Shown here: positions 15,061 through 61,998 of the stretch, piece by piece | How positions within the stretch are numbered: the first letter of the stretch is position 1 | How the letters are laid out: each line of letters begins with the position of its first letter | DNA from: an uncultured virus (IMG/VR IMGVR_UViG_3300038825_001787) | Taxonomy: Duplodnaviria > Heunggongvirae > Uroviricota > Caudoviricetes | Length of the DNA: 64,000 nt | Strand: one strand, 5' to 3' | Virus record (IMG/VR): IMGVR_UViG_3300038825_001787 | Made by a program: the position numbers and the translations under genes | Notes under the pieces: model-generated | What the model saw: the letters and a program-made list of their open reading frames with translations, nothing else | Database searches by the model: none | Told to the model about the DNA's origin: nothing

Positions 15061-16329
15061 ATGGTAGTCAGTCCCGACTTTGCTGATGGAGTTATTTATG
15101 ACTTCAAGGAGAAGTCTAAAGAAATTATCGATGCATATTCACTAAGTCACTTAAGAGGAACAGCCGCAATGGATCCGGTGTCTAGGCTAGGTGAAGAATT
15201 CATAAAATTAGCACAAGGTAGCACAACAAGCCAAACAATGACTGAATCAATGTTAGAGTCAGAAAAAAGATTGTACTTGAGAACAATTGAGCAAAAAGTG
15301 CTGGAAGTGTCCAGAAACCAAAGTGCTACCTTAAACGGAATTGCATCAGCACACGCTAAACAAGCACCAATTAAAGATGCTAATTGGGATAGGACAATCA
15401 CATCTGTTGCTAGGGAAGTAGACAGAATAGCAATGAAAAATGCCGACTTGGTAAATATGTTACCCAAAGAACAACAGCAAGTTATGGATGGTATGTTTTC
15501 AACCGTTGTTGACCAAGTTAGATTCAAACACAGCAGAGACCCATCTGCAGAAAGTTCTATGCTAGCAGAAAAGGCAGCATTGAAAGAATTACGCAAAGTA
15601 GAGTCACACTTGGAAAAAGTTAGCAAAAACACATTAAAAGCAAAGCAAGATATGATTTACAATGATTTTAATGAGCAACTAAGACGTTACATGGCATCTT
15701 TTGCACAACTTCGCAAAGCAATGAAGCCCCAAGAAGTAAAGGCAACAAATGCACACATCTCTTCAATCAAAGCAATGATAAGAGAAATCAAAACCAACAG
15801 AAGATTGGTTAGTGACGAAGAGTTGCTGAAAGCACATATTGGTGCATTACAAGATCAGTTTAGAATACTAAATGATATGGAAGGTAGTGTTAGTGAAACA
15901 GTTTCTGCTGTTGCAGGCATATTTGGTTCAACACATAGAAGAACCAACAAAACACATTTTGCATTAGATGGTTTTGGTGCAATGGTCTCAGCCCAGGAGA
16001 TTGCCAACAAACACCCAGAAAGAACAAATCCAGCACACATTCGTTCAATGCAGTATTTTATGAATCAAGGGCAAACATTTGAAGAAGCACACGAGTCAGC
16101 AATAGCATATGGGTTCGAACCCGATGGTGGAGTAATGGCAATGGATTTAGACCGCAGAGTAAATTATCTCGGACAAGTACCAGTCACCGATGCAACAGCA
16201 GCATCTCATACAATTAAAGAAAACTCTGATTTTGTTAAGGGATTGACGTCTGGTGGCACGCTTTTGGGTTTAGGAACTGTCCTTGCTATAGGAAGTGTAG
16301 TCGGATTAGTAGTAATATCAAGTAGGTGA
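15061..16329 (+). CDS. Coiled-coil protein with C-terminal TM anchor
   Basis: 422 aa, helical/charged; LDGFG and YLG motifs; hydrophobic C-terminus; TTAACA 28 nt upstream. Confidence 0.8.
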   Translation: MVVSPDFADGVIYDFKEKSKEIIDAYSLSHLRGTAAMDPVSRLGEEFIKLAQGSTTSQTMTESMLESEKRLYLRTIEQKVLEVSRNQSATLNGIASAHAKQAPIKDANWDRTITSVAREVDRIAMKNADLVNMLPKEQQQVMDGMFSTVVDQVRFKHSRDPSAESSMLAEKAALKELRKVESHLEKVSKNTLKAKQDMIYNDFNEQLRRYMASFAQLRKAMKPQEVKATNAHISSIKAMIREIKTNRRLVSDEELLKAHIGALQDQFRILNDMEGSVSETVSAVAGIFGSTHRRTNKTHFALDGFGAMVSAQEIANKHPERTNPAHIRSMQYFMNQGQTFEEAHESAIAYGFEPDGGVMAMDLDRRVNYLGQVPVTDATAASHTIKENSDFVKGLTSGGTLLGLGTVLAIGSVVGLVVISSR

Positions 16330-18332
16330 ACAAAATGAATTTTATAAGAAATAATGGTGAAGTAGTAGAAGTTAATGACAGAGATGTCCAAACTCTTGAA
16401 AAGGGAAACGGCTACACACTTTATGGGGCAAGACACAATCCAAGTGGTGAACAGATGGTAGGCGTAGTATATGACGGTAGCAATATAGCAAAACAAGAAG
16501 CAGAATATGCTGACAACGATATAGGTGAAGCATACGACCCAAATGACACCATAACGGCAAATCCACCAAAAACCAAAGTAATAAGTTGGAAAAATCTTAG
16601 ACTCCAAAGTGCAATATCCGGTGAGAAAGCAGTCAGAAAGGGTGTAACTGGTATAGACATTGGAGGCAGTACGGCATCACTAGCAAGAAAACTAGGAAGT
16701 TTCATTGCGTCAGGACAAGTTTCTACAGGGGTTTCAATCAGAGACGATCCGTTATTGTTTGTTACTACCGCAGAAAATTGGTATAGTTACATTAAAAATA
16801 TGAATACAGTTGATATTGGCGCAGAGTTTGCTGCCGGTGTTTCGCACGCACAAAGATCTTCAAATGCATTATTCGCTCACGAGTGGGAAAGTGACCCAGG
16901 TCATCACAACTTGATGAGTCGTTTACTACCAGGAGTTGATACACAAGATGCAATTGCAAAGGGGCAAATTGCTTACGATATATTGACAAGAGGTCGAGAA
17001 ATACTTTCACAACAAGGATACGGTGCTACACAACAAGAAGTTATGCACAGACTTGTTTTCGACATACTGCGCTCAATGCCAGTAAAGCAATACAACTATT
17101 ACACACTCTATCAACTACATCCAGATGAAGGAAACGAAGTGTACGCAGAATTCAAAAGCAGATACATTCCTTTGGAAACAGCAGAAGTAGAAATGGTTTT
17201 AGAAATGCAGAGAGCGTTAGAATCAGAAGGTGATGCATATGCTTTTAGAACCACAACAAACGAACAAACCGGAATACTTTCTTCCAAGTTGATGAGAGCA
17301 GCAGTTGCTGATTACTCAGTGGGTGACACAGTGAATGTTAGAACCTTGTTGATGACACTACAAGCACCACCATATAACTACAGACCAAGAGCAGTCGATA
17401 TAGCAATGGCATCAGGTCAAAGTGGTGCAGCAGTGGCTAGTGGTACAACGTTTTTGGAATTTAATGTACAAAACAAATCAGCAGTTGACCTAGTTGTAAA
17501 TGCTGGTTCTGGTAGAAAATTAAGTAATGAAAAAATCGGCGCCTATGCACTAAATATAGATCCTCAGCATTTAGATAGGAATAATAATTTAAGAATAAGT
17601 AAAGCCCATGCTGATAATTACGAAACCATATTAATCGCTACAAGTCAATACAATACCGCACCAAAGTTCGTCGCAGTGAGAGTTGGTGGTGGCGGTAATA
17701 ATAATAAAGGTGGTAAATTCAAGATAATTGCGTACAATGAAGAGTATCTAAGACTTGGTGGTAACGACAGACCAGACCAAAGAGCAAGAGGAATTAGAAG
17801 AGGTCTTGGCAAACAAAATCCTGCCAAGAAAGCAAAGAAGAATCCAAGCGGTAAAGGCAGAGGAAACTTTCACTTTGTTCAACTATGGCCAACAACACAA
17901 TTAGATATTAAGAAAAGAGAACCAGTCGGTGGAATGGCAGGTGGTACTAGACATGGCACAGGCAAGTCAAAGAAAGGCCAAGGATATTGGACCAGAGGTC
18001 TAAACAAAGCAACCAAAGATATGCAAAACAAACAACTACTGATGATGGGAACACACAAGAAAACAGGCGAAGAAGCACCTTACAGAATTAAATTCCCAGT
18101 CTCTTTGTTCAAAATTGTTAACCATCCAACAGCAGGATACAAAACACTAATGCCCAAGAAAGATTTACAAAACAAGAAATTCATCGCAGCATACCAAGAT
18201 TTCATAAATCATTATGGATTACCAAAACACGCACCTTCGAAAGATACTTATAACCGATTTATTATACCGAAGTCAGAAAGAGCAAAGAGTCCTTACTACA
18301 TAGATATGCGTAAAAAAAGCGGTAAAAAGTGA
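16326..18332 (+). CDS. Multidomain hypothetical protein with Asn-Pro delimiters and basic C-terminal domain
   Basis: 668 aa; RHNPS, TANPP, KQNPAKKAKKNPSG. Confidence 0.8.
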   Translation: MNKMNFIRNNGEVVEVNDRDVQTLEKGNGYTLYGARHNPSGEQMVGVVYDGSNIAKQEAEYADNDIGEAYDPNDTITANPPKTKVISWKNLRLQSAISGEKAVRKGVTGIDIGGSTASLARKLGSFIASGQVSTGVSIRDDPLLFVTTAENWYSYIKNMNTVDIGAEFAAGVSHAQRSSNALFAHEWESDPGHHNLMSRLLPGVDTQDAIAKGQIAYDILTRGREILSQQGYGATQQEVMHRLVFDILRSMPVKQYNYYTLYQLHPDEGNEVYAEFKSRYIPLETAEVEMVLEMQRALESEGDAYAFRTTTNEQTGILSSKLMRAAVADYSVGDTVNVRTLLMTLQAPPYNYRPRAVDIAMASGQSGAAVASGTTFLEFNVQNKSAVDLVVNAGSGRKLSNEKIGAYALNIDPQHLDRNNNLRISKAHADNYETILIATSQYNTAPKFVAVRVGGGGNNNKGGKFKIIAYNEEYLRLGGNDRPDQRARGIRRGLGKQNPAKKAKKNPSGKGRGNFHFVQLWPTTQLDIKKREPVGGMAGGTRHGTGKSKKGQGYWTRGLNKATKDMQNKQLLMMGTHKKTGEEAPYRIKFPVSLFKIVNHPTAGYKTLMPKKDLQNKKFIAAYQDFINHYGLPKHAPSKDTYNRFIIPKSERAKSPYYIDMRKKSGKK

Positions 18333-20464
18333 TTAAAATGAGAGTAAAGGTACCAAGAGATTTGGCTGGTGGCTCGCTACTTAAAGCACACCAGTGGGCT
18401 AAATCCCAAACTGTCAGTTCTAACCCAGGTCATTCATCTAACGATTATAAGATACAAGGCGTAGATGGTACACCATTAACTCTTAGCGATTTGACAAGTA
18501 GAACATTTGATGAAGTATTGATAATATCCGGTGCAAAAAACAACCCACCAAGTGGGTATCCTTTGGAACCAACATATGGATATCCTTCCTTCAAGAAAAA
18601 TAGACTCGGTAACAAACCAACTGTATTGTTGGCTAAAGATGTAGACCCCTCAATGGTAGAAAGACTCGCCATGCAGAACGGTATGTTTAGCGCATTGAAT
18701 ACTGTAACCAAATTATTATACGCAGAAGAAAACATGGAGTCTGGTACAGACCCAAAAATAGCGGCATTATTGCAAACATATGCAAATGCTACCATGAAAG
18801 TTAAACATAACCCGGGTGGTAGGGCTTTCTTTGCAACAGATATCAACGATAGGTTTGCCGGAGTTGTTTCTCCCCAAGAGGCAGTTCGTTCATTCATTTC
18901 ATCTCAATATGGAATAGACCCAGACCCCGGCCGGTTTTCCCCAGACGGCAACACAGCAACTGGATATATGATTGAGAAAGCAAGAATATTAGATATGTAC
19001 AACCTAAATGACTCGTCAATTTTAGACGAATTTCAAGATAATGTACTGACACCTTTCTTGGTTTCATCAATTGCAAACGCTAAGTTGTTGAAAGCAATGC
19101 AGCATCAAGATTACATAGATATAACAAATACACAGTTGAAGATGCCAGCATCTGGAGAAACGTGGAAAAAATTCAATTTGCTATTACCAACCCAAGCAGA
19201 GGATTACTACGATGGTAGAGATTATGCTTTGATTGCGCATCCTTTGTTTATGCGGGATTCAATAGGGTTGGCAGTGATGAGCGAAAAACTTGTTAAACAT
19301 ATATCAAAAATAGTTAAGGAGTATCCTAGAAACACATCAAAAGCAAAGAATAGTAGAACTATGAAGCACCAACGAACAATAATTGACTCATTCAGAGGAG
19401 CCATAGAGACAGATTTAGTATTTAACATGGCGATTAGCCAAGCCGATGTAATGAGAGATGGTACAACACCAGAAGAAGTTTTAGAGGCATTGAATAGCAT
19501 ATTCTCATCAACAACCAGAGATACGGATCTAATTCGATTTACACAAAACCTAAAGCCGGATTTTCTTGTTTCTTACCAAAGAGATGTCGCAGGATTTAGA
19601 CCAACTGCACCTCCGTATTGGCCTAAACCAGTTGTCTTGGCTTTAATGGACGCCATTAGAAATAACATACAACCTATAATTAAAAAAGAATTAGATCTTT
19701 CTACAGCATTTGCTCCATACATATCAAAACCTTCTGAAATGACCGAAGATCAGATTAAACTAGCCGAGGCATACAGAACCAAAATATTAGAAGAAAAAAA
19801 TATTGATATAGCAATAAGTAACCTAAATGCAGGACCTAATTCTACCCTCTATAAACTTTGGAAAAAGGATTCGAAGAAATTCAAAAGCAATGAAATAACA
19901 ACTGATAACCGGAAAGAAGCAATTCAAGAAATACAAGCGTTATTGGCAACAAAACCTAAAGTAGAGAGAGTAGACTCAGAAACTATACATATACTAAGTA
20001 TATTTATGGAGATAGAAGATACTTGTAGAGGTAAGTATAGATATACTATGACAGAGAATGATAGAGCCTTTGCCCTATATCTATTAGACGATGTAATAAG
20101 AAGAATCACAAAGAAAACTGGTGCCAGTGAGGAACCAGCCGACCCAGACGACTCAGAAGTAAATAATAGGGTAATGAGAATATTGGAAGGATATAGAGAT
20201 GACACTGGTGGTAGCGATGCTAAACAACTTGCTAACAGAATTGGTTTTGAAGCAAAGTTAGATGCCATAGTAGCACAAGCAAGGCGAGAAATACTCGCGG
20301 CAGATGATGACAAAAAAGCCGATGTGGTACGTCGTTATAGAGATAGATTGTTTAAACTGTCTAATAAGAAGGGGTTGCCAATGTGGGCTGTGGAAAAAAT
20401 TAGGGGTTTAAGGGTTGACGAATCGTATAACTTTATGGCAACTGATTTTGGTTTGAGGGAATGA
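18329..20464 (+). CDS. Multidomain hypothetical protein with Asn-Pro delimiters
   Basis: 711 aa, GTGA overlap with previous gene; SSNPG, KNNPP, KHNPG. Confidence 0.8.
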   Translation: MIKMRVKVPRDLAGGSLLKAHQWAKSQTVSSNPGHSSNDYKIQGVDGTPLTLSDLTSRTFDEVLIISGAKNNPPSGYPLEPTYGYPSFKKNRLGNKPTVLLAKDVDPSMVERLAMQNGMFSALNTVTKLLYAEENMESGTDPKIAALLQTYANATMKVKHNPGGRAFFATDINDRFAGVVSPQEAVRSFISSQYGIDPDPGRFSPDGNTATGYMIEKARILDMYNLNDSSILDEFQDNVLTPFLVSSIANAKLLKAMQHQDYIDITNTQLKMPASGETWKKFNLLLPTQAEDYYDGRDYALIAHPLFMRDSIGLAVMSEKLVKHISKIVKEYPRNTSKAKNSRTMKHQRTIIDSFRGAIETDLVFNMAISQADVMRDGTTPEEVLEALNSIFSSTTRDTDLIRFTQNLKPDFLVSYQRDVAGFRPTAPPYWPKPVVLALMDAIRNNIQPIIKKELDLSTAFAPYISKPSEMTEDQIKLAEAYRTKILEEKNIDIAISNLNAGPNSTLYKLWKKDSKKFKSNEITTDNRKEAIQEIQALLATKPKVERVDSETIHILSIFMEIEDTCRGKYRYTMTENDRAFALYLLDDVIRRITKKTGASEEPADPDDSEVNNRVMRILEGYRDDTGGSDAKQLANRIGFEAKLDAIVAQARREILAADDDKKADVVRRYRDRLFKLSNKKGLPMWAVEKIRGLRVDESYNFMATDFGLRE
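19960..20100. other. TpA-rich island inside CDS
   Basis: aactatacatatactaagtatatttatggagatagaagatacttgtagaggtaagtatagatatactatg. Confidence 0.65.
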
Positions 20465-20470
20465 TGTAAT

Positions 20471-21574
20471 ATGTCAGAATTAGAAGCAATGGGCGACTTA
20501 GAAAACTTCCTTAATGGCTTAGACTTAGAAGCCGGTGATTTAGGGCAACCAATGTATTTAGATGCAGATGTGCTGGAATTAAAGAAAAACATAAACTTAA
20601 TTGAGCAAAGGCAACCAGCGTTGAAAGAAATAGCAAACATTGTAGATGAGCATACAAAAGAAGTTTTACAAAAACTAAGTAACGGTGCAAAAAGTATACA
20701 AAAAGAAGCAGATGATGTTTGGGCATCATTTGATGATTTTGTACAAAATGGTCCGGTAGAGATAAAAAATATACGAGCCCCAGACGCTGAAATTAAAGAA
20801 AAGTTTTTAGAAAAACAAGCAGACTATGCACAGACCATTATTACTTTAACAAAACAAGCAATTTTGTTTGGCACAATAGAGCACCAGTTTGAATCAGCAA
20901 AGAATACACTAGAACTACAAACAAGGTTGGCTGGACAAGATGATTTATTTTCTAGTGATAGGAAACCATATTCCATTCAAAGTATGTTAAAGCAGACCAA
21001 GAAACTAACAAAGGAGATTAAATCTTTGAGAGACAGAATTGATAAAACTGTGTCATTGATTAGAGAGTTTGGTAATTATGACACAAAAGCAGGTGATACA
21101 TTGTATTTCAAAATACTAGTTGCCTATCTAGACTATATAAATGCAGTTTACAAACTAGAGTATAGGGCTAGAGAAATAGAAGCAACGATTGTGCAGATGA
21201 ATGCACCACCAGTAAACAAAGTGTTGGAAGAAAGCAGTATCGAGCGAGCCAGGAAGATTGTTGGCGAAAAAGCAAAGAGTTTCGGTAAAGAAGCGGTAAA
21301 AATAGGGCAGAAGTATGGGCCGATGTTGCTTAACGAATTCCAGAGAGGACCTATGGAACCAGTTGAAAGGATAATTGAAAAGTATAGAAAAGACATGGTG
21401 GCAACAGACAAAAAGATTTTCAAATCTTACAAAAAAATAGACTCTCAAGCAACGTCTGCTTCAAAGGATTATAAACCTGTTAAAGCACTAAACCAAGTCA
21501 AACTTAGCACCAATAAAGGTCTTTTACAAAGTACAAATAGAGCACTCAGATCAGCGTTGCAAGATGCCTTCTAG
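20471..21574 (+). CDS. Alpha-helical/coiled-coil hypothetical protein
   Basis: 367 aa, K/E/L/A-rich. Confidence 0.8.
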   Translation: MSELEAMGDLENFLNGLDLEAGDLGQPMYLDADVLELKKNINLIEQRQPALKEIANIVDEHTKEVLQKLSNGAKSIQKEADDVWASFDDFVQNGPVEIKNIRAPDAEIKEKFLEKQADYAQTIITLTKQAILFGTIEHQFESAKNTLELQTRLAGQDDLFSSDRKPYSIQSMLKQTKKLTKEIKSLRDRIDKTVSLIREFGNYDTKAGDTLYFKILVAYLDYINAVYKLEYRAREIEATIVQMNAPPVNKVLEESSIERARKIVGEKAKSFGKEAVKIGQKYGPMLLNEFQRGPMEPVERIIEKYRKDMVATDKKIFKSYKKIDSQATSASKDYKPVKALNQVKLSTNKGLLQSTNRALRSALQDAF

Positions 21575-21613
21575 AAACACTACCTGTATAAGTAGCGACC
21601 CTGTCCGACAAGC

Positions 21614-23059
21614 ATGACTAGCGCAGTCTATTGTGACAATTGCGGTATAAAGAATAACCCAAGTCATATGCACTGTAAAATGTGTGCTAGCGAATTACCC
21701 ACCCCTGTAAGACAAAATCCCTTGTATTCTAAGTTAACAAGAGACCGACCCAAAGCAGTCGTTTTTGACTTAGACATGACTTTGTTTGACAATTCACAAA
21801 GATTCACAGACGCACGACGCGCAGGTCTTGTCGATAAAGAAGGCAAGGCAATTGTTAAGAGATTGACAAGCAAAGAAAAAGCAATGAAGAAAAGAAATAA
21901 GTTTCTTTATTCACAAAAAGAATTGTCAAAAGATGTCGTGATTCCGGGCGCAACCCAGTTGGTAAGTGATTTGAAAAACGATGGTTACACTGTGATTTAT
22001 CTTACTGCAAGACCAGACAAGTATCAAGAGCAAACAATTAAACAACTGGAAAGTAAAGGCTTTCCATTATTTAGAGACATGGATGGAAACCCATTGGTCT
22101 TTTCTAAACCGGCAAGCAGGACACAAGTTCCTGCCTTTAAGGGAAACAAAGTTAGAGAACTACTTGGTAACTATAAGATAGAAATGGTCTTCGATGACAG
22201 TAAGAACAATCTAGAAGAAATTGCTAAGTTAAAAATACCAGGACTATACGCTAGTATTTCAGACCACGTTAAACACAATCCAGATCGTAGCGAGTTTGCT
22301 TATGTAGCAGAAGATGGAGCAAAAGGCCCGTTTGTAACTAGTGACCTTAGTGAACCCGACATTGACAAAGCGTACGAAGTTATGCCCGAACGTGACGGCG
22401 ATCCTAACAACAGAGATTCTACCGTTGAAGATACGGCACATTTAGAAGAAGAACGTATGAAACAAATGACACTGGACGACTTCTCACTAATAAACCCAAT
22501 AGGACCAAGAGCATTACCAAACCCACTACCAAAACCAAAGAAAAAGAAACTTTCAAACGGTAAGTATCGCAAAGAACCAAGGAAAGTTTACATCACTAGA
22601 ATGATGGATAAGAACAAGAAGATGAAAACCGACTTCCCAGATAGAAAGCAAAGATATGCAGTTACTATGACACTTGTGGAAAAGTTCTATGGTAAAACAA
22701 AAGCAAACCCAGTCAAAACAAACCCAGCACATCCAAGTAAAGTAGAGAAGGCTAAAAAACTTTACAAACATATGAATGGTAAAGAACCAGCAAAGATCGA
22801 GAAAAAGAAACTTGACTTAGGTGATGTATGGTATCAAGTTGGTGAAGGTGGATGTTGGCAAATTGGTTACATATCTGGTAAAGATAACGGCAGAGATGAC
22901 CAAAAGTACACCCATGTTTTCAATGAAGAGAGCAAAGACGGCAACTTCCCTAAGTTGTACGCAACAATGCCAGAAAACGGCAAACCAATGCTAGTCATTA
23001 CTGGTGGTTCATGGAAGATTAAAACAGATAGCGAAGGAGTCGCTTGGATATACGATTGA
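21614..23059 (+). CDS. Multidomain protein: Zn ribbon + HAD phosphatase (PNKP 3'-phosphatase-like) + small phage-type domains, Asn-Pro delimited
   Basis: CDNC/CKMC; HAD motifs VVFDLDMTLFD, YLTARP, K, VFDD; KTDFPDRKQRYAV domain; C-terminal KLYKHMNGKEP...YTHVF...PKLY...ITGG domain; 7 delimiter-like NP motifs. Confidence 0.8.
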   Translation: MTSAVYCDNCGIKNNPSHMHCKMCASELPTPVRQNPLYSKLTRDRPKAVVFDLDMTLFDNSQRFTDARRAGLVDKEGKAIVKRLTSKEKAMKKRNKFLYSQKELSKDVVIPGATQLVSDLKNDGYTVIYLTARPDKYQEQTIKQLESKGFPLFRDMDGNPLVFSKPASRTQVPAFKGNKVRELLGNYKIEMVFDDSKNNLEEIAKLKIPGLYASISDHVKHNPDRSEFAYVAEDGAKGPFVTSDLSEPDIDKAYEVMPERDGDPNNRDSTVEDTAHLEEERMKQMTLDDFSLINPIGPRALPNPLPKPKKKKLSNGKYRKEPRKVYITRMMDKNKKMKTDFPDRKQRYAVTMTLVEKFYGKTKANPVKTNPAHPSKVEKAKKLYKHMNGKEPAKIEKKKLDLGDVWYQVGEGGCWQIGYISGKDNGRDDQKYTHVFNEESKDGNFPKLYATMPENGKPMLVITGGSWKIKTDSEGVAWIYD

Positions 23060-23068
23060 GGTGATTAA

Positions 23069-23371
23069 GTGGATTACAAATTAGGCATATCTGAAAAGAC
23101 ATGGACATACATTGGTGTAGCATCCGGTACACTACTTTTGATTAGTTCTTTGCGCACAGCAGCCAATGTTATTGGCAGCGATGGTATCTTTGGTTACGGG
23201 AAGAGTCAAAAACTTGCAACCTATGGCAAGGGTAAGGAGAAGACGTGGTCATCGATACAAGCACTTTCATTAGGACTGGTTGCATTAACAATGGTAGAGA
23301 ACAGTCACGACAATTTAGTCAAACTAGCAGAAATAAGAGAACAAGGAAAAGAAGTAATACAATTTTGGTGA
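23069..23371 (+). CDS. Small membrane protein (2 hydrophobic segments)
   Basis: 100 aa; GAGGTGA SD before GTG. Confidence 0.75.
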   Translation: MDYKLGISEKTWTYIGVASGTLLLISSLRTAANVIGSDGIFGYGKSQKLATYGKGKEKTWSSIQALSLGLVALTMVENSHDNLVKLAEIREQGKEVIQFW

Positions 23372-23375
23372 TATA

Positions 23376-23582
23376 ATGGCAGAAATATGGAATCCCTTTG
23401 ACGCGAAAAACCCCGTCTATAAACAACTAGCAAAGAAAACAGCGATAAATAACAAAACGTGGAGAATTGTTGGTAGTGTTGCAGTTGTGATGATTTTAGC
23501 AGACTACGCTGGTAAGAAGGGGTACAAAATACCAGGATTAAACGGGGTCAAAAATAACCCATATGGAATAATCCGCAAGTGA
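23376..23582 (+). CDS. Small single-TM protein with three NP motifs
   Basis: 68 aa; GGTGA SD; WNPF, KNPV, NNPY. Confidence 0.7.
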   Translation: MAEIWNPFDAKNPVYKQLAKKTAINNKTWRIVGSVAVVMILADYAGKKGYKIPGLNGVKNNPYGIIRK

Positions 23583-23591
23583 GGCGGAGGT

Positions 23592-26500
23592 ATGAGTAAG
23601 TATGCTTTTTCTGAATCATTCGGTGAACTAACCGACAAAGATACAGAAAACGCAGTATTAAGTTACAAACCACACGTAGTTGACCACATTTTACAACACT
23701 ATGAAATACACGTCAATAGCCACGATCGTGAAAAATTAACTTCTCCGCAACTACTGTACTATCATGTCTACGGCGACTATCGTTTAGTATTAGACGACAA
23801 AAAGCCTAAGTTCGTTTACAAAACCACACCAGTCACCGACGATGAAGCAATACTAAACAACATAATCGTAAGTAATCGATACTACTTGAACCGATTTTTA
23901 CAAGGAGAGCAGGAAGGCATCATCAACGGCATATATGATGAAGTACAAAATGACGGTGCATTGGTTCACCGAATTGAGGCAGTAGACTGGATGAACACAG
24001 AACTGAAAGAAAAAGGTGCAGGCACTAAATTCACACTTCCAAGCATTGGTACAGAGATTGTGAAAATGCACGCATATGGAAACGCTTCCGATGGTATCAA
24101 AAAAGGACTCGCAGACGAAATGTATGTCCTTAGTGAGTTTTTAGATTCAGACTACGAGAATCATGAGTATCCAGTAATTTATCAAGAAGATTCAAATGTT
24201 ATAGTTAATCGCATATTAGGTAGCGCAGATAGAATTGCTATGGACGACTTCAATGGAGAGGTATCAAAGTCGATTGCAATATTTATTGAAGCATTTTTGT
24301 CAAATATCGAGTTTGTAGAATTGAACAATAGGTACGCAAGTGACCTTCCAGATATAAGCGGCACCAATAATAGCATACATACGGCGCTAAGAGAAGTGTA
24401 TCTTTCGTCAAATGATTATGACACAGAAAGAGCGATTAAAAGAATAACATCTGCTTTGTTTGGAAAATCCACGCAAAGATTTGATATTGGAGACAGAGTG
24501 ATGTTGTCAGAAAATTTGGCAAATGAGAAGCGTTCAGAAATAGCGACTTTAATTGGTGCCGACGAAGACGATGTTATGGGAGCAGAGTATGTGGTTTATG
24601 GATTTAATGAAGTATCAGGGTACATCCTACAAACCGTGGATTTAGTTGGTGGTGCGCCATTTACTGTAGATTTGTCGAATGCACCGATAGATATAACATT
24701 AGACGATAATGATTTGATTAAAACAGCAGTTCCAACATTTGACTACGAAAACGATTCAGGAGATGTCACCACTACTGGCGGTAAGAAAAAGAAAAAGGGT
24801 GGTTCGGTAGTTTTAAACCCAATTCAAATTGCCTTCCAAAGAATACTTCTTGACACATTTGCTTCGATTCAAATACTATGCCATATAAATGAGTGGGCAA
24901 AGCAAAGAGGTGACAACGCAAATGCTAAGACAGAAGCAAAGATGCGATTTCTTTCTAGAGGAGTCAATGTTTATACTCCGACCAAAGATAACAACCAGAA
25001 GAAAAAACAAGGCGATAACAGCGACAAGACCAAATTAAAACCACATCAAGTTTACAATTCGTTTCCTAACGTTGCACACTTTGACGCAACACGTATAGTT
25101 GGTATACCACCGAGCACTAGCAGTAAAACAACGTTAGCAAAACGTGGACTATTAGACGAAATGGCAGATTGGAGAGCATACTACACCTTGTCTATACTAA
25201 GCAAAATACGAAAGAAAACACTAGACAGACAAACAATGGATAACTTTTACAAATCTAATATAATGATAAAAGAAATCGCTTGGATGGCAACTGCACTAAG
25301 TGATGGCGCTAAAGTACTTTCTAAGAAAGAAGACATGAGAGAAAGAGACCTGATGGCTCAAATTCAATATAGATCAGTGGCAAGGACAGACGGTAGTATC
25401 TCTCAAACAGCCGTTGCACCAAAGGAAACTGTTTTCTACGAAGTTGATGTACCATTATTGAAAGAAGTAATAATGACTTACACAGAGGTGTACAATAAGT
25501 CCGTTATCTATCGTGCGTACAATACAGCAGTCGATAGGCCGGAAAGTACTACCTTTACAGCAAACAGCAACGTAGAACAATTAGTTAGAGATGCATACAA
25601 GGCAAACAAAGAAGATAATAAAGACTTGAAAAATCAACTACTAGGTCAAGCAATGGCATTACAACCAGACGCGTTCAAAGTAGATCAACCGTATGGCTGG
25701 GATTCCGAGACTAAGAAAGCAAAAACAAGAGACGACGCATCACCATATCCTGGGATTACTTATATCCCAAGAAACTTTACTTACCACGTAGAAAAATCAA
25801 GAATCCCTAGAAATATAGATGGTGCAGATAAAATCCTAGGCTACCCCGATGCATTAGCACCCGATGCCACTGGTGACCCGTTGGGAGTGAAAACCACAAA
25901 GGAAAAGAAAAAACCAGTTAGAGAGGCAGACCTAGCAAAGCAAATATGGACGTCTGTTAGAACAAGAACAACTGGGTTATTTGACTTAGAAGGTGCAAGA
26001 CCACACGAATTTATGCTTCAACTGTTTAACCAAATGGACGACACACTATCACGCTCTAAATTGATTAAATCTCCATATCCTGATTCTTGGTTGGGAACGA
26101 ATATAATTGACAAATTGACAACCGACCCTATGCAATTAGGAGAGTCTGTCGAAACAAGATTCTACGAAGAAAAACTAGCAGAATACATTACTGCGCTAGA
26201 AAAAAGATACATTAGCAATTATTTAGTTCCATCAGTCTTATTGACACAAACACAAATGGGTCGAATCAAATACAGTAAGAATCCAGAGAAATTGAAAATG
26301 GCTTTTATGGAAAGACTTGCAAAAGATGCAGCAAAGCCAAGATTGGTGACTACCAATTATATTCTCAGACCATATGCAATAACAGTATCAATCATGCGCG
26401 CTATACTACAAATACCTAAATTAGAACAATCGAATTACGTTGCGAAAGAAATAGACGAAGATATGCGCACGGAGATACGCAAACACATGTACCACAATGA

Positions 26501-26801
26501 CATTAGACCATTGCTACCTAAGGAACACCCATTGTGGCAACCAAGAGATGACATTCCAACACCAGCAGTAGCAACAGGAACAGCAGCAGGAGCAGCAGTG
26601 GGAACACCAGCAGCAACACCGGCAGAAATACCGGCAGCAACACCGGCAGAAATACCGGCAGCAACACCAGAACGAAGAGAACGACCACTTCCATCACCAG
26701 AACCTAGAAGAGTACGAGTCCCAGAACTACCAACTACACCAGACCTATCGCTATTTGATGAGTTTGACGAGGCTCTAGAAGACTTTGGAGGTGAGATGTA
26801 A
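23592..26801 (+). CDS. Large hypothetical protein with Pro/Ala-rich C-terminal tail
   Basis: 1069 aa; Lys-run linkers; PAATPAEI repeats. Confidence 0.85.
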   Translation: MSKYAFSESFGELTDKDTENAVLSYKPHVVDHILQHYEIHVNSHDREKLTSPQLLYYHVYGDYRLVLDDKKPKFVYKTTPVTDDEAILNNIIVSNRYYLNRFLQGEQEGIINGIYDEVQNDGALVHRIEAVDWMNTELKEKGAGTKFTLPSIGTEIVKMHAYGNASDGIKKGLADEMYVLSEFLDSDYENHEYPVIYQEDSNVIVNRILGSADRIAMDDFNGEVSKSIAIFIEAFLSNIEFVELNNRYASDLPDISGTNNSIHTALREVYLSSNDYDTERAIKRITSALFGKSTQRFDIGDRVMLSENLANEKRSEIATLIGADEDDVMGAEYVVYGFNEVSGYILQTVDLVGGAPFTVDLSNAPIDITLDDNDLIKTAVPTFDYENDSGDVTTTGGKKKKKGGSVVLNPIQIAFQRILLDTFASIQILCHINEWAKQRGDNANAKTEAKMRFLSRGVNVYTPTKDNNQKKKQGDNSDKTKLKPHQVYNSFPNVAHFDATRIVGIPPSTSSKTTLAKRGLLDEMADWRAYYTLSILSKIRKKTLDRQTMDNFYKSNIMIKEIAWMATALSDGAKVLSKKEDMRERDLMAQIQYRSVARTDGSISQTAVAPKETVFYEVDVPLLKEVIMTYTEVYNKSVIYRAYNTAVDRPESTTFTANSNVEQLVRDAYKANKEDNKDLKNQLLGQAMALQPDAFKVDQPYGWDSETKKAKTRDDASPYPGITYIPRNFTYHVEKSRIPRNIDGADKILGYPDALAPDATGDPLGVKTTKEKKKPVREADLAKQIWTSVRTRTTGLFDLEGARPHEFMLQLFNQMDDTLSRSKLIKSPYPDSWLGTNIIDKLTTDPMQLGESVETRFYEEKLAEYITALEKRYISNYLVPSVLLTQTQMGRIKYSKNPEKLKMAFMERLAKDAAKPRLVTTNYILRPYAITVSIMRAILQIPKLEQSNYVAKEIDEDMRTEIRKHMYHNDIRPLLPKEHPLWQPRDDIPTPAVATGTAAGAAVGTPAATPAEIPAATPAEIPAATPERRERPLPSPEPRRVRVPELPTTPDLSLFDEFDEALEDFGGEM
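26607..26669 (+). repeat. 24-bp in-frame tandem repeat (2.6 copies)
   Basis: CC(A/G)GCAGCAACACCGGCAGAAATA x2 plus partial; encodes PAATPAEI. Confidence 0.95.
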
Positions 26802-27412
26802 TGATAATCCCATTTTACACAAGTAGTGGTCAGGCAGGAAAACGCGATGCGGAGGGTATCTTATTCGGAGTTGGCGAGTTCTTTCCGTTCTGGGGTTATG
26901 GCCCTGATTGGTTTAATAAAACTAATTACACTTGGAAGGGCCATCCCGAAGAAACAGCCATAGCAAACGATGACCGATCCAAATACTATGGTTCCACTAA
27001 ACTCCGAAGAATAGCAAATGAGTTAGATGCTTTGCTTCCAGATTTCAAGACAATGGTAAACCAGATGGAGAATCAGATACCTAGTGAAAATATCAACTTC
27101 CTGACGAGAAGTAACTTGATTAACAAATTAGCAAGCAGGGAGTTCGGAGCCAAAGACGAAGAGTTCAATCAGGGGTTAATTGCTAACGGCATAGTTCCCA
27201 CTGATCACGCAGGAAGCAAAGGTGGAAAAGTTGATGAGAATATTAGAAAGGCAAAGAAGATCATCGGTGTTGATGGGCCAATAACTTACAAGTTGGTTCC
27301 TTTCCAAAACGGACATAACTTTGCGTATCAGCCTGTTACCGATACAAACAGCGGCAGATTTTTTGTTCTAGTCGATATCAACCCTGCGAGTGAGAGGGAG
27401 GAACTAAAATGA
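26801..27412 (+). CDS. Hypothetical protein
   Basis: 203 aa; GGAGGTGA SD; TAATG and ATGA overlaps on both sides. Confidence 0.8.
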   Translation: MIIPFYTSSGQAGKRDAEGILFGVGEFFPFWGYGPDWFNKTNYTWKGHPEETAIANDDRSKYYGSTKLRRIANELDALLPDFKTMVNQMENQIPSENINFLTRSNLINKLASREFGAKDEEFNQGLIANGIVPTDHAGSKGGKVDENIRKAKKIIGVDGPITYKLVPFQNGHNFAYQPVTDTNSGRFFVLVDINPASEREELK

Positions 27413-30400
27413 GTGACAACGCATTACTATTCCGTGAGTTCGACAAGTTCGCTCAGTTAGAAACTGTTGACAAAGAAACTTTGACAGAAGACGACATCAC
27501 CTTCTTTTTAGACAACTTCCTTTCACCCAATGTGTTCTTTTGGCATAAAGGCCAAAGCATACTTTGTGCAAATGCAGAAGATAGAGAAACCGGACAAAAA
27601 CCATTTGATATGTCGGGTAAATCATTTACAGAAGCAGTTAACGAACTAAAGCCACTATTAACTAAGAAAATAAAAGACAGTTATGGTAGTGTCTCACAAG
27701 AAGCAAATGCGTTTGGATACGACCCTGCACCAAAGACCGTAAAACAACTAGCGGAAGCACTTGCTTACGATGCAGGAATGAATACGGAAAAATGGAAAGG
27801 TATGTCGGAAATAGAAAGATTACAACACCCTGTAACAACAAATGCGCAGGTAAGAGCCAATGCAATCAAAAGTAGATTAGCACAATACCACGAAAGAGTC
27901 TTACCTTTCATGCTAAGAAAAACAATGCATCACCCAATTTCATTCATTAGATACAGTCAAACTAGAGGACACATACCAACTCCATTGAGAGACACCAAAG
28001 ACGTAATGGAGGTAACATTACGCTCAGAAGACGATTTACAAGAAATATTGAGTAGTAAAAGATACAAAGATACAGACTTCCCTGGCGCACTGGATGAAGA
28101 AATAAGAGGAATGGTTTGGGATCCAGCACCAACTAGAAAAAACCTAAAAATGGCTGTAATAGATATCGATAACCCTGCAAAGTTGAAAAAAGAAAAACTC
28201 AGAGACGTCACTTACAAGGCAGCAACTAGGATTGTGGATGCAGGACATCCATACATCATAATGTATACTGGAAAGAATTTTCAAATATGGATGGGAGCAA
28301 ATGCAGAACAACCATTGGGTGACGCACCAGATGTTATCGATTATCTTAGAGGACTGTTAAACGGACTAGGGAACTTTGAGGGTAAAAATCAAGCAATCGC
28401 TGCAAATGAGATATGGTTTGATGAAGGTGTATTGGCAAATAGAATGGAACCAACTAGAATGTTCTTTAGTCTACACTATCCTTTGAGAGACTTACAAAAA
28501 ACTTACAGTGGGCTGGCTGCAGTTCCAGTTAGTATTGATGAAATTAAAACATTTGACCCGTTAATGCACGCACACCCAGAAACTGTTTTATTAAACTTTG
28601 ATACATATGCAAGTGTAATATCTGCGTTCTATGATGCTGTCAAGATAGGACAAGATTATGGAATGGATACAGAAACAGATCCAGAGTGTATTAGATTAGA
28701 AGAAAAATATCCAGATCACCAATCAATATCTCTAATAGATAATAGTAGTAATAGTATAGGTGTTAAGTTAGAAGATATATCTAGTAAAGTAGCAGATGAA
28801 GAGTCAGCATTTGTTTATGCTAAAGCAAGAGGAATAGACGCAGTAATAACATATAACGAAAGAGGTGGCATTCGATTTGGTGGGAATACCCTATCAGCAA
28901 CAAAGATATCAGGAACGGGTGTTTCAAAGATAGAAAGTAGAGAAAACACACTATCGACACTGATTACCAGAACTGGTATTGTTATACATCAAGATTACAT
29001 TACTAGAGACTTGCAGAGATTTTGCCAGTCTAAAAAGATATCAGAAATAACACTGGTCGGCCAGTTAGTTAGCACAGATTATGTTGGTGCTCAATTAGAA
29101 GAAAAAGAAATACGTGGTGTGATAGCACGGAAAGGGGAGATACTACCAGAAGAGTTTAAGCGACTTAGATTTGTAGCAAATAAAATAGTGTCTTATAACA
29201 ACGATGAAGTTCCATTAGAAGTTATGAGCAAGGAACTAGGTAAGATAAACACAGGGAGAATATCACCTTCTCCTAATGCATATTACACGCAACCAATTGG
29301 AACCAAAGTCAAGAAGTTGTATCAACAGATTAGGAATCAAAGAACCGGTAGAGAGTTAGTCGTATTGGGTGAAGAAAAATATATTATTACATCTAGACAG
29401 ACAATGAATATGGTAGTCTTAGGAATGGATCCTAAAACAACGTCATACCAACAAAATTCTAGAGAAATAGGCAATGTGTATGTTGGTGTCATAAAGACTG
29501 ATAGGAATAGAGGACCAATATATTATGTTCTAGGGAAAGCAGAAATTGCGTTAAAGAAAGAAGATAGAATCAAATTAAAACAACTAGTAGTCGGCGAAAA
29601 CAACGAAAACATTGTTCCCATTAATCTTAGAAATGACGATTTCGTCAAAGATATCGTCTTGACAGAACCATCGATAGTAGTAGAAGTAGCATACGAAGAT
29701 ATAGGAAAAAGAATGACGGAAGGTCTGCCCTCTCACTTTTTACCAGGAACACAGGCAGGAAGACCCTCGATATACAGGATAGTACCAGTAAAAAGATATG
29801 TTACCAAAATGCTTGGAGCAAGAATAATAGGAATAAAAGAAGATCTGAATCCACTAAGAGAAACAGATGTGTCTTACAAGCAAGATAATTTGATTAAAAT
29901 ACAAGGTACAGCACCAAAAGGTGGTTTCTCTATTGTACAGTCTTTGCCTAATCCGATTAAAAGACACAACTTGCATTTCCCTTACGACAGGTATTTAGGT
30001 GAAGAAATAGATACCAAAGTTCCCTGGAAAATGTCAGAAAAGGCATTTGACAAACTGAGTAGATTAACTAAGAACAAGTCACTTATCGGATATGTTGATG
30101 GTAAAAGAATTTATTATGACGAGGCCGACTATTGGGTAATGCATGGTAGTAACGAAGACTTTTTCTGGGCATCTATGACGTTCAGGTCTATACAATCTCC
30201 ATTCAAATTACGAGGCATTGACATAATGACCTCAGCAAAGATGTGTGCGGAGTATGGAATAAACTGGCATTTGGTTATAGCAGAAGGAACTTTCTATTGG
30301 TTATATTGTAACATAGAAAACGACGAGATTCGTAAAAAACACGCTAAATACATCAAAGATGAAGACCACAAAGGCAATATCGAAGAAATACTATCTGACT

Positions 30401-31560
30401 TATTACATACAGTAAACTCCACATACTCTCCCAAAGAAAAGGTAAATGATGCAAAAGTTCCAGGCTTTGTGTTTGACGTAGTTGTAGTTGAAAAGATAAA
30501 AACCAATCCCGCGTTCTTTGGTGTCCCTAAGAAACTAAATTCATGGATGGATGTTTATGTGGACTCACAACCATTGGGTCTCGATGATGACGGCAATCAA
30601 AAATATAAAGACGTAATAGTACAAGGAACATTAGTTAGAATGCCAGTGTATGGTGGTAGAAAAGCAGACGTTCCTTTGTTGAGTAAAGGTTGGGAGTCTG
30701 AGAGCGTTGAAAAGCGTATACCGGGAGAATTTGACAAAGCAGCAAGAAGACACTTGCGTGGAGAGTCCGGATACTCAGTTTGGCTTGACGAAAAAAGTGC
30801 AAACAGTATTAGCAAAGTAACACCACATTATACACAAACTAGTTTACCACTTTCTTATTCGACTGCAGTTGACGACGCATTTGGTTATGGTAAAGATGGT
30901 AACAGAGTCTTATTTGGTAAAGAACCGAACAAAATAACTCAAATAACTGATAGGTACAACACCAAGTCGTATAAGACACAAGTAGATTTACACGACATGA
31001 CTAACAAAGAACAGGCAGAAGAAGATGCCAAAGTACTTATGAAAATGTTCAATTATGTGCCAGGTGGGAAAATATTAGACCCAAATAAAAAAGAAGTAGA
31101 AGTGAGACCTGGTAGTGGACTTAGTTTAGAATATCAAGAAGCATTCGAGGCAGACAACGAACGCTTGCGTAAAGCACTAAAACCAACAGAGTTTGCACAC
31201 TTTGGTGCAAGAATTAATCCACCAATTAAACAACAAGCATGGTCTGCATACGTCGATAAATATGTAAAGACCCACGCTAAATGGGAGTCTGAACCAGAAC
31301 CTAAAGAAAGTTGGGAAAGATACAGTGTAGGAGAATTTCCAATCCACTTTGTAGATATGTTAGAAAAGGAAAGATTATTGTTGAAAGCCCAGTCCGAACA
31401 TTCGTTAACAGAAGATGAGTTGCGAATAGTCAACGAAACTTTTAGTGCTGAACCAACAAGCGACTTATTAGAAAGTCCACTTGATGACTTATTTGAAACG
31501 GAAGAAGAGGAGGAGGCAGTCGAATATGAACCAAGTGACGAAGACTACGACGTCGAGTGA
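27409..31560 (+). CDS. LigD-like fusion: AEP primase-polymerase + degenerate ATP-dependent ligase core + ligase OB domain, followed by NP-delimited unknown domains
   Basis: AEP: MAVIDID, MYTGKNFQIW, IWFD, FFSLH, AVPVSIDEI; ligase-like YAKARGID, TLVGQL; OB: MVVLG, IGNVYVGV, YVLGKA, TEPSIVVEVAYED. Confidence 0.7.
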   Translation: MSDNALLFREFDKFAQLETVDKETLTEDDITFFLDNFLSPNVFFWHKGQSILCANAEDRETGQKPFDMSGKSFTEAVNELKPLLTKKIKDSYGSVSQEANAFGYDPAPKTVKQLAEALAYDAGMNTEKWKGMSEIERLQHPVTTNAQVRANAIKSRLAQYHERVLPFMLRKTMHHPISFIRYSQTRGHIPTPLRDTKDVMEVTLRSEDDLQEILSSKRYKDTDFPGALDEEIRGMVWDPAPTRKNLKMAVIDIDNPAKLKKEKLRDVTYKAATRIVDAGHPYIIMYTGKNFQIWMGANAEQPLGDAPDVIDYLRGLLNGLGNFEGKNQAIAANEIWFDEGVLANRMEPTRMFFSLHYPLRDLQKTYSGLAAVPVSIDEIKTFDPLMHAHPETVLLNFDTYASVISAFYDAVKIGQDYGMDTETDPECIRLEEKYPDHQSISLIDNSSNSIGVKLEDISSKVADEESAFVYAKARGIDAVITYNERGGIRFGGNTLSATKISGTGVSKIESRENTLSTLITRTGIVIHQDYITRDLQRFCQSKKISEITLVGQLVSTDYVGAQLEEKEIRGVIARKGEILPEEFKRLRFVANKIVSYNNDEVPLEVMSKELGKINTGRISPSPNAYYTQPIGTKVKKLYQQIRNQRTGRELVVLGEEKYIITSRQTMNMVVLGMDPKTTSYQQNSREIGNVYVGVIKTDRNRGPIYYVLGKAEIALKKEDRIKLKQLVVGENNENIVPINLRNDDFVKDIVLTEPSIVVEVAYEDIGKRMTEGLPSHFLPGTQAGRPSIYRIVPVKRYVTKMLGARIIGIKEDLNPLRETDVSYKQDNLIKIQGTAPKGGFSIVQSLPNPIKRHNLHFPYDRYLGEEIDTKVPWKMSEKAFDKLSRLTKNKSLIGYVDGKRIYYDEADYWVMHGSNEDFFWASMTFRSIQSPFKLRGIDIMTSAKMCAEYGINWHLVIAEGTFYWLYCNIENDEIRKKHAKYIKDEDHKGNIEEILSDLLHTVNSTYSPKEKVNDAKVPGFVFDVVVVEKIKTNPAFFGVPKKLNSWMDVYVDSQPLGLDDDGNQKYKDVIVQGTLVRMPVYGGRKADVPLLSKGWESESVEKRIPGEFDKAARRHLRGESGYSVWLDEKSANSISKVTPHYTQTSLPLSYSTAVDDAFGYGKDGNRVLFGKEPNKITQITDRYNTKSYKTQVDLHDMTNKEQAEEDAKVLMKMFNYVPGGKILDPNKKEVEVRPGSGLSLEYQEAFEADNERLRKALKPTEFAHFGARINPPIKQQAWSAYVDKYVKTHAKWESEPEPKESWERYSVGEFPIHFVDMLEKERLLLKAQSEHSLTEDELRIVNETFSAEPTSDLLESPLDDLFETEEEEEAVEYEPSDEDYDVE
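28685..28800. other. TpA-rich island inside CDS
   Basis: tctaatagataatagtagtaatagtataggtgttaagttagaagatatatctagtaaagtagc. Confidence 0.6.
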
Positions 31561-61689: not shown

Positions 61690-61761
61690 TACAATGTCAA
61701 GCAATAACAGATATGGGAACACAGTGCGAGAGAATAACGAGGTCAGGATGGTGTCACCAAC

Positions 61762-61995
61762 ATGGGACTAATATTTCGTGATGAAAGAGATGACCAACAA
61801 GAAGCATTGATGCAAACAACTGCTGTTGGACTGACATGGCAATATCGCTATCTTACTATGAAGTGGATGGTTTACACTGTGCTGTCTGGAATCGGCTCAG
61901 GTTTAGGCGTAGCATTGACAGACTATGCTGTTATGAGAATGACTGACCATACTGGTCTAGTAGACTGGGCTTTGACTGCATTGATGGGGGCATAA
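61762..61995 (+). CDS. Small membrane protein
   Basis: 77 aa; hydrophobic WMVYTVLSGIGSGLGVAL. Confidence 0.7.
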   Translation: MGLIFRDERDDQQEALMQTTAVGLTWQYRYLTMKWMVYTVLSGIGSGLGVALTDYAVMRMTDHTGLVDWALTALMGA

Positions 61996-61998
61996 TAC

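What the first reader, a model, noticed from the sequence alone, without database searches (positions are those of the whole stretch)
16326..31560. The NP code extends across a whole 15-kb block of adjacent genes
Seen: the same motif punctuates neighbouring ORFs. 16326: RHNP, TANPP, KQNP, KKNP. 18329: SSNP, KNNPP, KHNP. 21614: KNNP, RQNP, KHNP, LINP, LPNP, KANP, KTNP. 23376: three in 68 aa. 27409: LPNP (29950), KTNP (30505), RINPP (31216). In 21614, RQNP and KHNP bracket the HAD domain. The chaperonin and methyltransferase have no NP, and the fibres have very few. Inference: a genomic district of internal (core/ejection) proteins sharing one processing or sorting signal.
Basis: partly seen in the sequence, partly recalled or inferred. 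Interest (0 to 1): 0.8.

Follow-up and report, generated by a model that had tools for sequence, protein, structure and literature searches.

The report
Shared Asn-Pro seams across viral genes
In an uncultured virus-like element of marine archaea, several neighbouring genes encode proteins built of modules joined at the same short Asn-Pro mark, and modules move between these genes at that mark, which looks like a common cut-here signal, although no cutting has been shown.

Summary
The motif is real but covers only part of the block. NP is 26 against 13.4 expected in the nine ORFs; against the window's other genes plain NP is not significant (P=0.06), [K/R]xNP is (P=0.003). In syntenic relatives NP seams are conserved in 16326, 18329, 21614 and 27409; 20471, 23069, 23592 and 26801 carry no conserved NP at the window's positions, and 23376 is ambiguous. 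The code extends beyond the block to polyprotein 31481 and the protamine-like protein 39541. It is a protein-level signal (codons free, one frame only), consensus [V/I/A/P]-[K/R/L]-x-N-P. NP-bounded modules are traded between different genes, and one protein is a separate gene in some relatives and an NP-started tail in others. Best reading (0.6): a processing site read by an element-encoded protease. Two candidates occur in all three complete relatives: a transglutaminase-fold Cys-His-Glu enzyme (9400) and a JAB-like module inside 31481. The element fits magrovirus group D. 'Core/ejection proteins' is not shown. This scan reported NP seams before on other DNA; I found no paper on them.

The parts
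16326..18332 (+). 668-aa protein; conserved seams N79 (nt 16560) and N498/N506 (nt 17817/17841) set off an acidic leader, a 419-aa core and a basic 162-aa tail. RHNP (N38) is probably a turn, not a seam (DP in several relatives)
   Evidence: N79 15 of 17, N498 16 of 19, N38 10 of 17; both seams also seen in the distant complete genomes
18329..20464 (+). 711-aa protein; fixed seams N32 (nt 18422), N72 (18542), N161 (18809); no cassette swapping at them. N32 is absent in more distant genomes
   Evidence: 25 of 25, 26 of 26, 26 of 27; indel ends not enriched at NP, 8 of 136 vs 12.2
20471..21574 (+). 367-aa fast-evolving protein without the code
   Evidence: 0 NP here; 11 vs 18.1 expected in 28 sequence or positional orthologs
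21614..23059 (+). 481-aa cassette protein: Cys-rich leader | HAD phosphatase (seam N35, nt 21716) | acidic module (N222, nt 22277) | basic module (N303, nt 22520) | conserved 112-aa terminal module (N370, nt 22721). N365-N370 is a site that holds extra modules in relatives; N159 is incidental
   Evidence: N370 51 of 51, N159 1 of 45; indel ends near NP 76 of 200 vs 35
23069..23371 (+). 100-aa protein without the code
   Evidence: 2 vs 2.0 expected in 32 orthologs
23376..23582 (+). 68-aa protein; two conserved NP (WNPF, xNPVY) in a non-basic context; membership of the code uncertain; third NP is NQ in most relatives
   Evidence: 26 of 34, 33 of 34, 10 of 32
23592..26801 (+). 1069-aa protein; its two NP are not conserved; three relatives carry an NP-started C-terminal module that is a separate gene elsewhere
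   Evidence: 4 of 44 and 5 of 40; family 107 vs 118.5 expected
26801..27412 (+). optional 203-aa gene in a variable slot; no evidence for the code
   Evidence: an extra gene of any kind lies here in 11 of 39 loci
27409..31560 (+). 1383-aa protein: LigD-like primase-polymerase/ligase part (1-847, weak hit plus recalled motifs) | optional 185-aa cassette (nt 29950-30504) | 237-aa module | acidic tail. Seams N848, N1033, N1270; DIDNP (N255) sits in the putative catalytic DxD motif; N814 incidental
   Evidence: 24 of 24, 22 of 24, 24 of 24; N814 5 of 24; cassette present in 14, replaced by a 9-12-residue spacer in 10 of 24, one event on the tree; TIGR02776 E=3e-4, far below cut-off
31481..37837 (+).
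31850..32497 (+). NP-bounded JAB/JAMM-like module (E, HTHP, S, D invariant): candidate metalloprotease; family name rests on a recalled motif
   Evidence: invariant in 25 of 25; found in all four other long genomes; not named by Pfam or PDB sequence search
34187..34573 (+). 129-aa NP-bounded module that lies inside the 21614 ortholog in other relatives
   Evidence: 89% protein identity; 92% DNA identity over 387 nt to L030; 8 copies in 21614-family and 3 in 31481-family proteins
39607..40674 (+). protamine-like Arg/Lys-rich protein (ORF called from 39541); 9-residue leader ending in NP (nt 39634) directly before the basic tract
   Evidence: NP kept in 10 of 10 loci with an intact N-terminus, not dereplicated, and in five long genomes
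9400..10095 (+). transglutaminase-fold enzyme with invariant Cys105, His138, Glu160: candidate cysteine protease
   Evidence: 40 of 40; model pLDDT 76; best match 3kd4 putative protease Z 13.7, rmsd 3.0, 146 aligned; present in G002, G003, G006, G007
38011..38715 (+). FtsK/HerA-type ATPase, candidate packaging enzyme (context)
41164..41778 (+). highly conserved beta-rich protein, candidate capsid protein (context; fold unconfirmed)

Best explanation
[V/I/A/P]-[K/R/L]-x-Asn-Pro is a protein-level processing mark shared by a set of late proteins of a magrovirus-group-D-like element. An element-encoded protease (the transglutaminase-fold enzyme 9400, or the JAB-like module within 31481) would cut at or next to NP and release separate proteins: it trims leaders from fixed-architecture proteins (16326, 18329, protamine-like 39541) and resolves cassette polyproteins (21614, 27409, 31481) into modules. 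Because any domain that brings its own NP is released regardless of which precursor carries it, modules can be gained, lost and moved between genes of the district. Shown: conservation, protein-level constraint, module exchange at NP, fused versus separate forms, intact candidate enzymes. Inferred: cleavage itself, the bond cut, the enzyme, and packaging into a virion.
For: Seams invariant in divergent flanks. Codon use at NP equals background and AAYCC is enriched in frame 0 only, 841 vs 294; six to eight of the eight possible codon pairs occur at most seams. Specificity lies mainly upstream of NP (-3 aliphatic, -2 basic), as in protease sites. Insertions end at NP in 21614 and 27409. 8 of 432 segment clusters span two gene families. 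A protein that is a separate gene in L055, L075 and L063 is an NP-started tail of the 23592 ortholog in L026, L072 and L060; the G006 27409 ortholog carries polyprotein modules and the G007 18329 ortholog carries 21614 modules. Fixed seams persist where nothing swaps (18329, 39541). Both candidate enzymes keep their putative catalytic residues in all three complete relatives and in G002. Precedents: polyvalent proteins with embedded peptidases (PMC5512222, passages).
Against: No cleavage product was observed; there is no proteomic data. Seams differ in context (VKxNP, xLPNP, VILNP), more than expected for one strict enzyme. Neither candidate is tied to NP: both are simply always present, and transglutaminase folds also serve as transamidases or cell-wall hydrolases. 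The JAB call is by motif only. Four of nine block ORFs lack the mark, and in the two most distant genomes plain NP in the district is not significant against the rest (P=0.10, 0.24). Some conserved NP are plainly structural (27409 N255, 21614 N15). Relatives share ancestry, so counts overstate independent evidence; the 27409 cassette is one event.
Confidence: 0.6

Rival explanations
1. NP is a docking or sorting motif: a scaffold or membrane protein binds each x-x-x-N-P and so recruits modules into the particle; nothing is cut.
For: Short repeated seams with nothing between them (NPxxxNP) would add avidity; the single NP in the 9-residue leader of 39541 and in the stand-alone G007 module with a 75-residue leader could be an address.
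Against: One address per protein would suffice, yet nearly every module has its own at its edge; separate-gene forms of the L055/L075 protein do not begin with NP.
Confidence: 0.15
2. Self-cleavage of the Asn-Pro bond, as in FlhB (NPTH), without a protease.
For: Asn-Pro autocleavage is documented for FlhB N269-P270 (PMC3708937, passages); N and P are the only invariant residues.
Against: No TH or other conserved downstream residues; FlhB cleavage depends on a folded domain (recalled), whereas these seams join unrelated, interchangeable modules; the upstream basic preference is unexplained.
Confidence: 0.1
3. NP is only a favoured linker or turn cap, and its short DNA similarity seeds recombination; no processing or binding.
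For: NP is 1.2-1.4-fold high in all other genes; some conserved NP are structural; seams do give 12-15 nt of microhomology.
Against: DP, which forms the same turn (recalled), is not tolerated at seams; invariance at sites with no swapping; conserved -3/-2 pattern.
Confidence: 0.08
4. The transglutaminase-fold enzyme uses the seam Asn side chain for deamidation or cross-linking (to lysine or a lipid amine), fixing modules in the core.
For: 9400 matches transglutaminases and PNGase (Z 10-11); Asn invariant; neighbours are Lys-rich.
Against: Known transglutaminases act on Gln (recalled); cross-linking does not explain fused versus separate forms.
Confidence: 0.05
5. The signal acts on DNA or RNA (integron-like cassette sites, splicing, excision).
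For: Modules move as precise units.
Against: No codon bias, no out-of-frame or reverse-strand excess of AAYCC; no listed joint falls on a seam in two DNA and two RNA contig sets, and contigs run across seams (contigs drop rare forms).
Confidence: 0.02

Closest known systems
Polyvalent proteins of phages and conjugative elements (Iyer et al. 2017, PMC5512222; passages read)
   Same: Large proteins combining unrelated domains, proposed to be packaged or transferred and processed into units by embedded peptidases; a JAB-family (RadC) domain occurs among their domains.
   Different: No zincin MPTase, ArdC or LPD domain was found by Pfam here; the words 'linker' and 'Asn' do not occur in that paper, so no junction motif is described; here one motif is shared by several genes that trade modules.
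Maturation proteolysis of core proteins in adenovirus, African swine fever virus and poxviruses (recalled; PMC11161782 passages for Ulp1- and OTU-type proteases of jelly-roll viruses)
   Same: One short motif in many internal proteins, including a leader on the basic DNA-binding protein, read by one viral protease.
   Different: Those motifs are Gly-based (recalled) and the enzymes are Ulp1/C5-type; none was detected here. Host is probably archaeal; cassette exchange between substrates is not a feature recalled for those viruses.
Magrovirus group D (PMC5434244, PMC10160649, PMC11706807; passages read)
   Same: PolB, RNA polymerase subunit A, thermosome and resolvase, no head-tail module: thermosome and RusA in the window, PolB and RNAP A in complete relative G003.
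   Different: The passages read report no morphogenetic block for this group and mention no NP-punctuated proteins; no phylogenetic placement was run here.
FlhB/HrcU NPTH autocleavage (PMC3708937, passages)
   Same: Conserved Asn-Pro as the site of chain scission.
   Different: Single site within one fold with conserved TH; here many sites at domain edges with upstream specificity.

Membership tests
Polyvalent proteins | Large protein with many biochemically unrelated domains in a mobile element | tested here: met
   31481, 21614 and 27409 and their orthologs
Polyvalent proteins | Hallmark domains (MPTase, ArdC-N, LPD families) | tested here: inconclusive
   no such Pfam, PHROGs or NCBIfam hit in the proteins and modules scanned; many modules have no hit at all
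Polyvalent proteins | Packaged or transferred with the DNA | not testable with these tools
   needs virion proteomics
Viral maturation-protease systems (adenovirus, ASFV, poxvirus type) | One short motif conserved in several internal proteins | tested here: met
   'internal' is inferred
Viral maturation-protease systems (adenovirus, ASFV, poxvirus type) | Gly-based cleavage motif (recalled) | tested here: not met
   logo is [VIAP][KRL]xNP
Viral maturation-protease systems (adenovirus, ASFV, poxvirus type) | Ulp1/C5-type protease | tested here: inconclusive
   none among 52 window proteins; the rest of this genome is not held; 9400 has a transglutaminase fold instead
Viral maturation-protease systems (adenovirus, ASFV, poxvirus type) | Jelly-roll capsid and FtsK/HerA packaging ATPase | tested here: inconclusive
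   ATPase hit weak but consistent; capsid candidate model pLDDT 41, best Z 3.9
Transglutaminase-like cysteine enzymes (9400) | Fold and Cys-His-acid triad | tested here: met
   Z 13.7, rmsd 3.0, 146 aligned to 3kd4; C105, H138, E160 invariant in 40 of 40
JAB/JAMM metallopeptidases (31850-32497) | E...HxH-x7-S-x2-D motif (recalled) | tested here: inconclusive
   E, HTH, S, D invariant, but spacing is x8 and no Pfam or PDB sequence hit; fold not predicted
FlhB-type autocleavage | NPTH motif | tested here: not met
   no conserved TH after NP
Magrovirus group D | PolB, thermosome, resolvase, RNAP A, no head-tail block | tested here: met
   PolB and RNAP A seen in relative G003, not in this window
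Magrovirus group D | Placement in the group D PolB clade | not tested
   no reference sequences fetched

The most novel reading that the evidence does not exclude
These elements run a genome-district-wide, open cassette system at the protein level: a viral enzyme reads one Asn-Pro code in many virion precursors, so any captured domain flanked by the code is loaded and released irrespective of its carrier gene.
Probability: 0.3. Interest if true: 0.85.

Novelty: new variant of a known kind. Interest (0 to 1): 0.66.

Why it matters
It gives a sharp, testable prediction for an abundant but enigmatic marine archaeal element: which proteins are precursors, where they are cut, and two named enzymes to test. 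It explains how unrelated enzymes can be shuffled between genes without breaking them, and, if confirmed, extends polyprotein maturation of the adenovirus/ASFV kind to an archaeal virus with a different motif and protease class. An Asn-Pro-specific protease would also be an unusual reagent.

Tried and rejected
No whole genome is held for the window, and the metagenome contigs behind the loci could not be opened, so genome-wide tests used IMG/VR relatives. 6540 (6 NP vs 1.8, outside the block) rejected as part of the code: 6 vs 6.0 in four orthologs. 11683 and 15061 have mild family excess (75 vs 48; 33 vs 13) but the window's sites are not conserved. Idea that 18329 residues 1-72 are ubiquitin-like: no Pfam or PDB support; left open. 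Capsid fold of 41164: model too poor (pLDDT 41); jelly-roll capsids appear among the rows but at Z 3.9 or less, not evidence. Atlas: no usable hit for the 112-aa module, only unnamed clusters for 41164. PDB sequence searches for 9400 and 27409 found nothing useful. Three distant transglutaminase-bearing loci show no NP polyprotein nearby (L091 14 vs 7.6, L092 14 vs 11.5, L093 10 vs 8.2), so this fold does not imply the code. Presence of the two protease candidates cannot separate them: both occur in every long genome. No Rfam match in the window. RNA-library contigs cover the block, but DNA carry-over is not excluded, so transcription is not claimed. Literature searches returned no paper on NP-punctuated viral proteins; subscription journals are largely missing from the library and no supplements were read, so group D annotations in supplements may bear on the novelty claim.
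Full report
Observation. The nine ORFs between 16326 and 31560 hold 26 NP against 13.4 expected from each protein's composition (P=0.0015; the top dipeptide of 400, not significant after correcting for 400). The excess comes from 21614 (8 vs 1.7), 23376 (3 vs 0.4) and, for the basic form, 16326. The other 44 ORFs run 1.3-fold high, so block against rest gives P=0.062 for NP, 0.0034 for [KR]xNP (13 vs 1.8 against 4 vs 2.6) and 0.0008 for [VAIP][KRL]xNP, a pattern chosen after seeing the logo. On counts in the window alone the claim is therefore marginal.

Relatives. A metagenome scan kept the best 80 of 156 loci; the 32 longest show the same gene order. I left out L001-L003, L007 and L008 as copies of the G001 contig (L008 by assumption) and dereplicated each family at 90%. 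Observed against expected NP: 16326 86/29, 18329 148/78, 21614 357/77, 23376 70/8, 27409 140/71, 31481 110/37; but 20471 11/18, 23069 2/2, 23592 107/119. Site by site: 16326 N79 15 of 17 and N498 16 of 19; 18329 N32 25 of 25, N72 26 of 26, N161 26 of 27; 27409 N848 24 of 24, N1033 22 of 24, N1270 24 of 24; 21614 N35 43 of 45, N222 37 of 47, N303 31 of 50, N370 51 of 51. Not conserved: both NP of 23592, 27409 N814, 21614 N159. Conserved but probably structural: 27409 N255 (after a DxD read from memory as a primase motif), 21614 N15 (between Cys pairs), 16326 N38 (DP in several relatives). As a control, 11 of 17 NP sites are at least 75% conserved against 19 of 186 other xP, 2 of 212 other Nx and 2 of 17 DP. 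These are related sequences, so the counts are not independent events.

Extent. In four long IMG/VR genomes (G003, G006, G007 complete; G002 79%) the polyprotein holds 17-22 NP against 5.5-7.6, and genes outside the district run 1.2-1.4-fold. District against rest: [KR]xNP P=0.039, 1.6e-7, 0.019, 0.0018; plain NP P=0.008, 0.005, 0.10, 0.24. So the code is densest in the polyprotein and thins to a few fixed seams in the other genes of distant genomes. Of 98 hits to the terminal 112-aa module of 21614 I examined 50 of the more distant; 43 of the 48 with upstream sequence have NP within about eight residues of the module start (one of the 48 is a likely false hit).

Level of the signal. Asn and Pro codon use at 841 NP sites matches background, and AAYCC is enriched only in the coding frame (841 vs 294; other frames and reverse strand at expectation). 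Most seams use six to eight of the eight possible codon pairs. No listed joint in two DNA and two RNA contig sets falls on a seam. The logo is V/A/I/P at -3, R/K/L at -2, S/K at -1, and nothing specific after Pro; subtypes are VKxNP, xLPNP and VILNP.

Module traffic. In 120 homologs of 21614, extra domains (Nudix, YbjQ-like, glutaredoxin and others by Pfam accession) lie between NP pairs; ends of large indels fall within 8 residues of NP in 76 of 200 cases against 35 expected; for 27409 4 of 12 against 0.7; no enrichment for 18329, 23592 or 11683. The 185-aa segment of 27409 between LPNP and KTNP is present in 14 and replaced by a 9-12-residue spacer in 10 of 24 relatives, a single event on the tree. 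Of 432 clusters from 1917 NP-delimited segments, 8 span two gene families: five 21614/31481, two 27409/31481, one 18329/21614 (the Nudix pair may be independent captures). The module at 34187-34573 is 92% identical in DNA to a copy inside the 21614 ortholog of L030, with similarity ending at the NP codons. A protein encoded separately in L055, L075 and L063 is an NP-started tail of the 23592 ortholog in L026, L072 and L060. This is the best evidence that the district shares one code and that an NP junction is equivalent to being a separate protein.

Candidate readers. ORF 9400 has invariant Cys105, His138 and Glu160 in 40 of 40 aligned homologs (40 chosen from 120 listed), and its model (pLDDT 76) matches transglutaminase-fold proteins, best 3kd4 at Z 13.7, rmsd 3.0, 146 aligned. 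The second module of 31481 has invariant E, HTHP, S and D residues in 25 of 25, which I read from memory as a JAB/JAMM site with one extra residue of spacing; Pfam and PDB do not name it. It is the only window module found in the 31481 ortholog of all five other long genomes, near the N-terminus in some and at the C-terminus in G006 and G007; the guanylate-kinase module is also always in the district. Both candidates occur in G002, G003, G006 and G007, so presence does not choose between them and does not link either to NP.

Mechanism. Most likely NP marks processing sites (0.6): fixed seams trim or split structural precursors, and cassette proteins are resolved into modules, which lets domains move among carrier genes. 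Cleavage, the enzyme and packaging are inferred. Rivals: docking motif (0.15), FlhB-like self-cleavage (0.1; PMC3708937 passages), plain linker with microhomology (0.08), Asn modification by 9400 (0.05), nucleic-acid-level signal (0.02).

Identity and comparison. Thermosome and RusA in the window and PolB and RNA polymerase A in G003 match the description of magrovirus group D, for which the passages read report no morphogenetic block (PMC5434244, PMC10160649, PMC11706807). That lead came from earlier notes of this scan. A tailless virion is suggested by the FtsK/HerA ATPase and the absence of head-tail hits, but my capsid model was too poor to confirm it, so 'core/ejection proteins' stays unproven. 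The system works like polyvalent proteins (PMC5512222 passages) and like maturation proteolysis in eukaryotic jelly-roll viruses (recalled; PMC11161782 passages) but meets neither the motif nor, so far, the protease criteria of those. Searches found no paper on NP seams.

Verdict. Real, protein-level, shared by four of nine ORFs plus two genes outside the range; new variant of a known kind; interest 0.66.

Noticed in passing
window 27409-29949: LigD-like primase-polymerase followed by ligase-like and OB-like segments whose putative ligase motif reads KARG (the Lys is not invariant in A7); activity unclear. The complete relative G003 has a separate primase gene.
   Followed up: partly
window 18329-18541: 71-residue conserved domain (invariant HxW, LSD) that looks ubiquitin-like by eye and ends at seam N72; no database support.
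   Followed up: partly
window 26801-27412 and L042, L055, L063, L069, L075, L083 at the same slot: Hypervariable gene slot between 23592 and 27409 holding at least three unrelated protein families; one has a YKxHI motif recalling LanKC/OspF-type lyase domains (recalled).
   Followed up: partly
L010 6217-9924, L038, L024, L028, L062, G003 116084: The 18329 and 20471-position genes are fused in several relatives, with an NP near the junction in some (L062, L075, L068, G003) but not clearly in others.
   Followed up: partly
window 3014-4948: Class II ribonucleotide reductase present here but not detected in the complete genomes G003, G006, G007 by BLAST against window proteins.
   Followed up: no
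window 33569-34114 and 37217-37765: Two guanylate-kinase-like modules in one polyprotein; the first has a degenerate Walker A (GPIRSTK).
   Followed up: no
window 33884-35215: Contig depth rises about two- to four-fold over these modules in both DNA runs, from other organisms' homologs: the modules seem widespread in other viruses.
   Followed up: no
window 61999-62718 with 60955-63458: Small GTPase-like gene in a conserved membrane-protein cluster next to the thermosome, kept in all long genomes.
   Followed up: no
L067 4425-6671, L086 3394-5616: 16326 orthologs whose leader is expanded by repeated NP-bounded Cys/His-rich mini-modules.
   Followed up: no
L136 (PCAW01000059.1): A 45-kb contig with the 9400 homolog is binned in an archaeal MAG, in line with an archaeal host or with mis-binning.
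   Followed up: no
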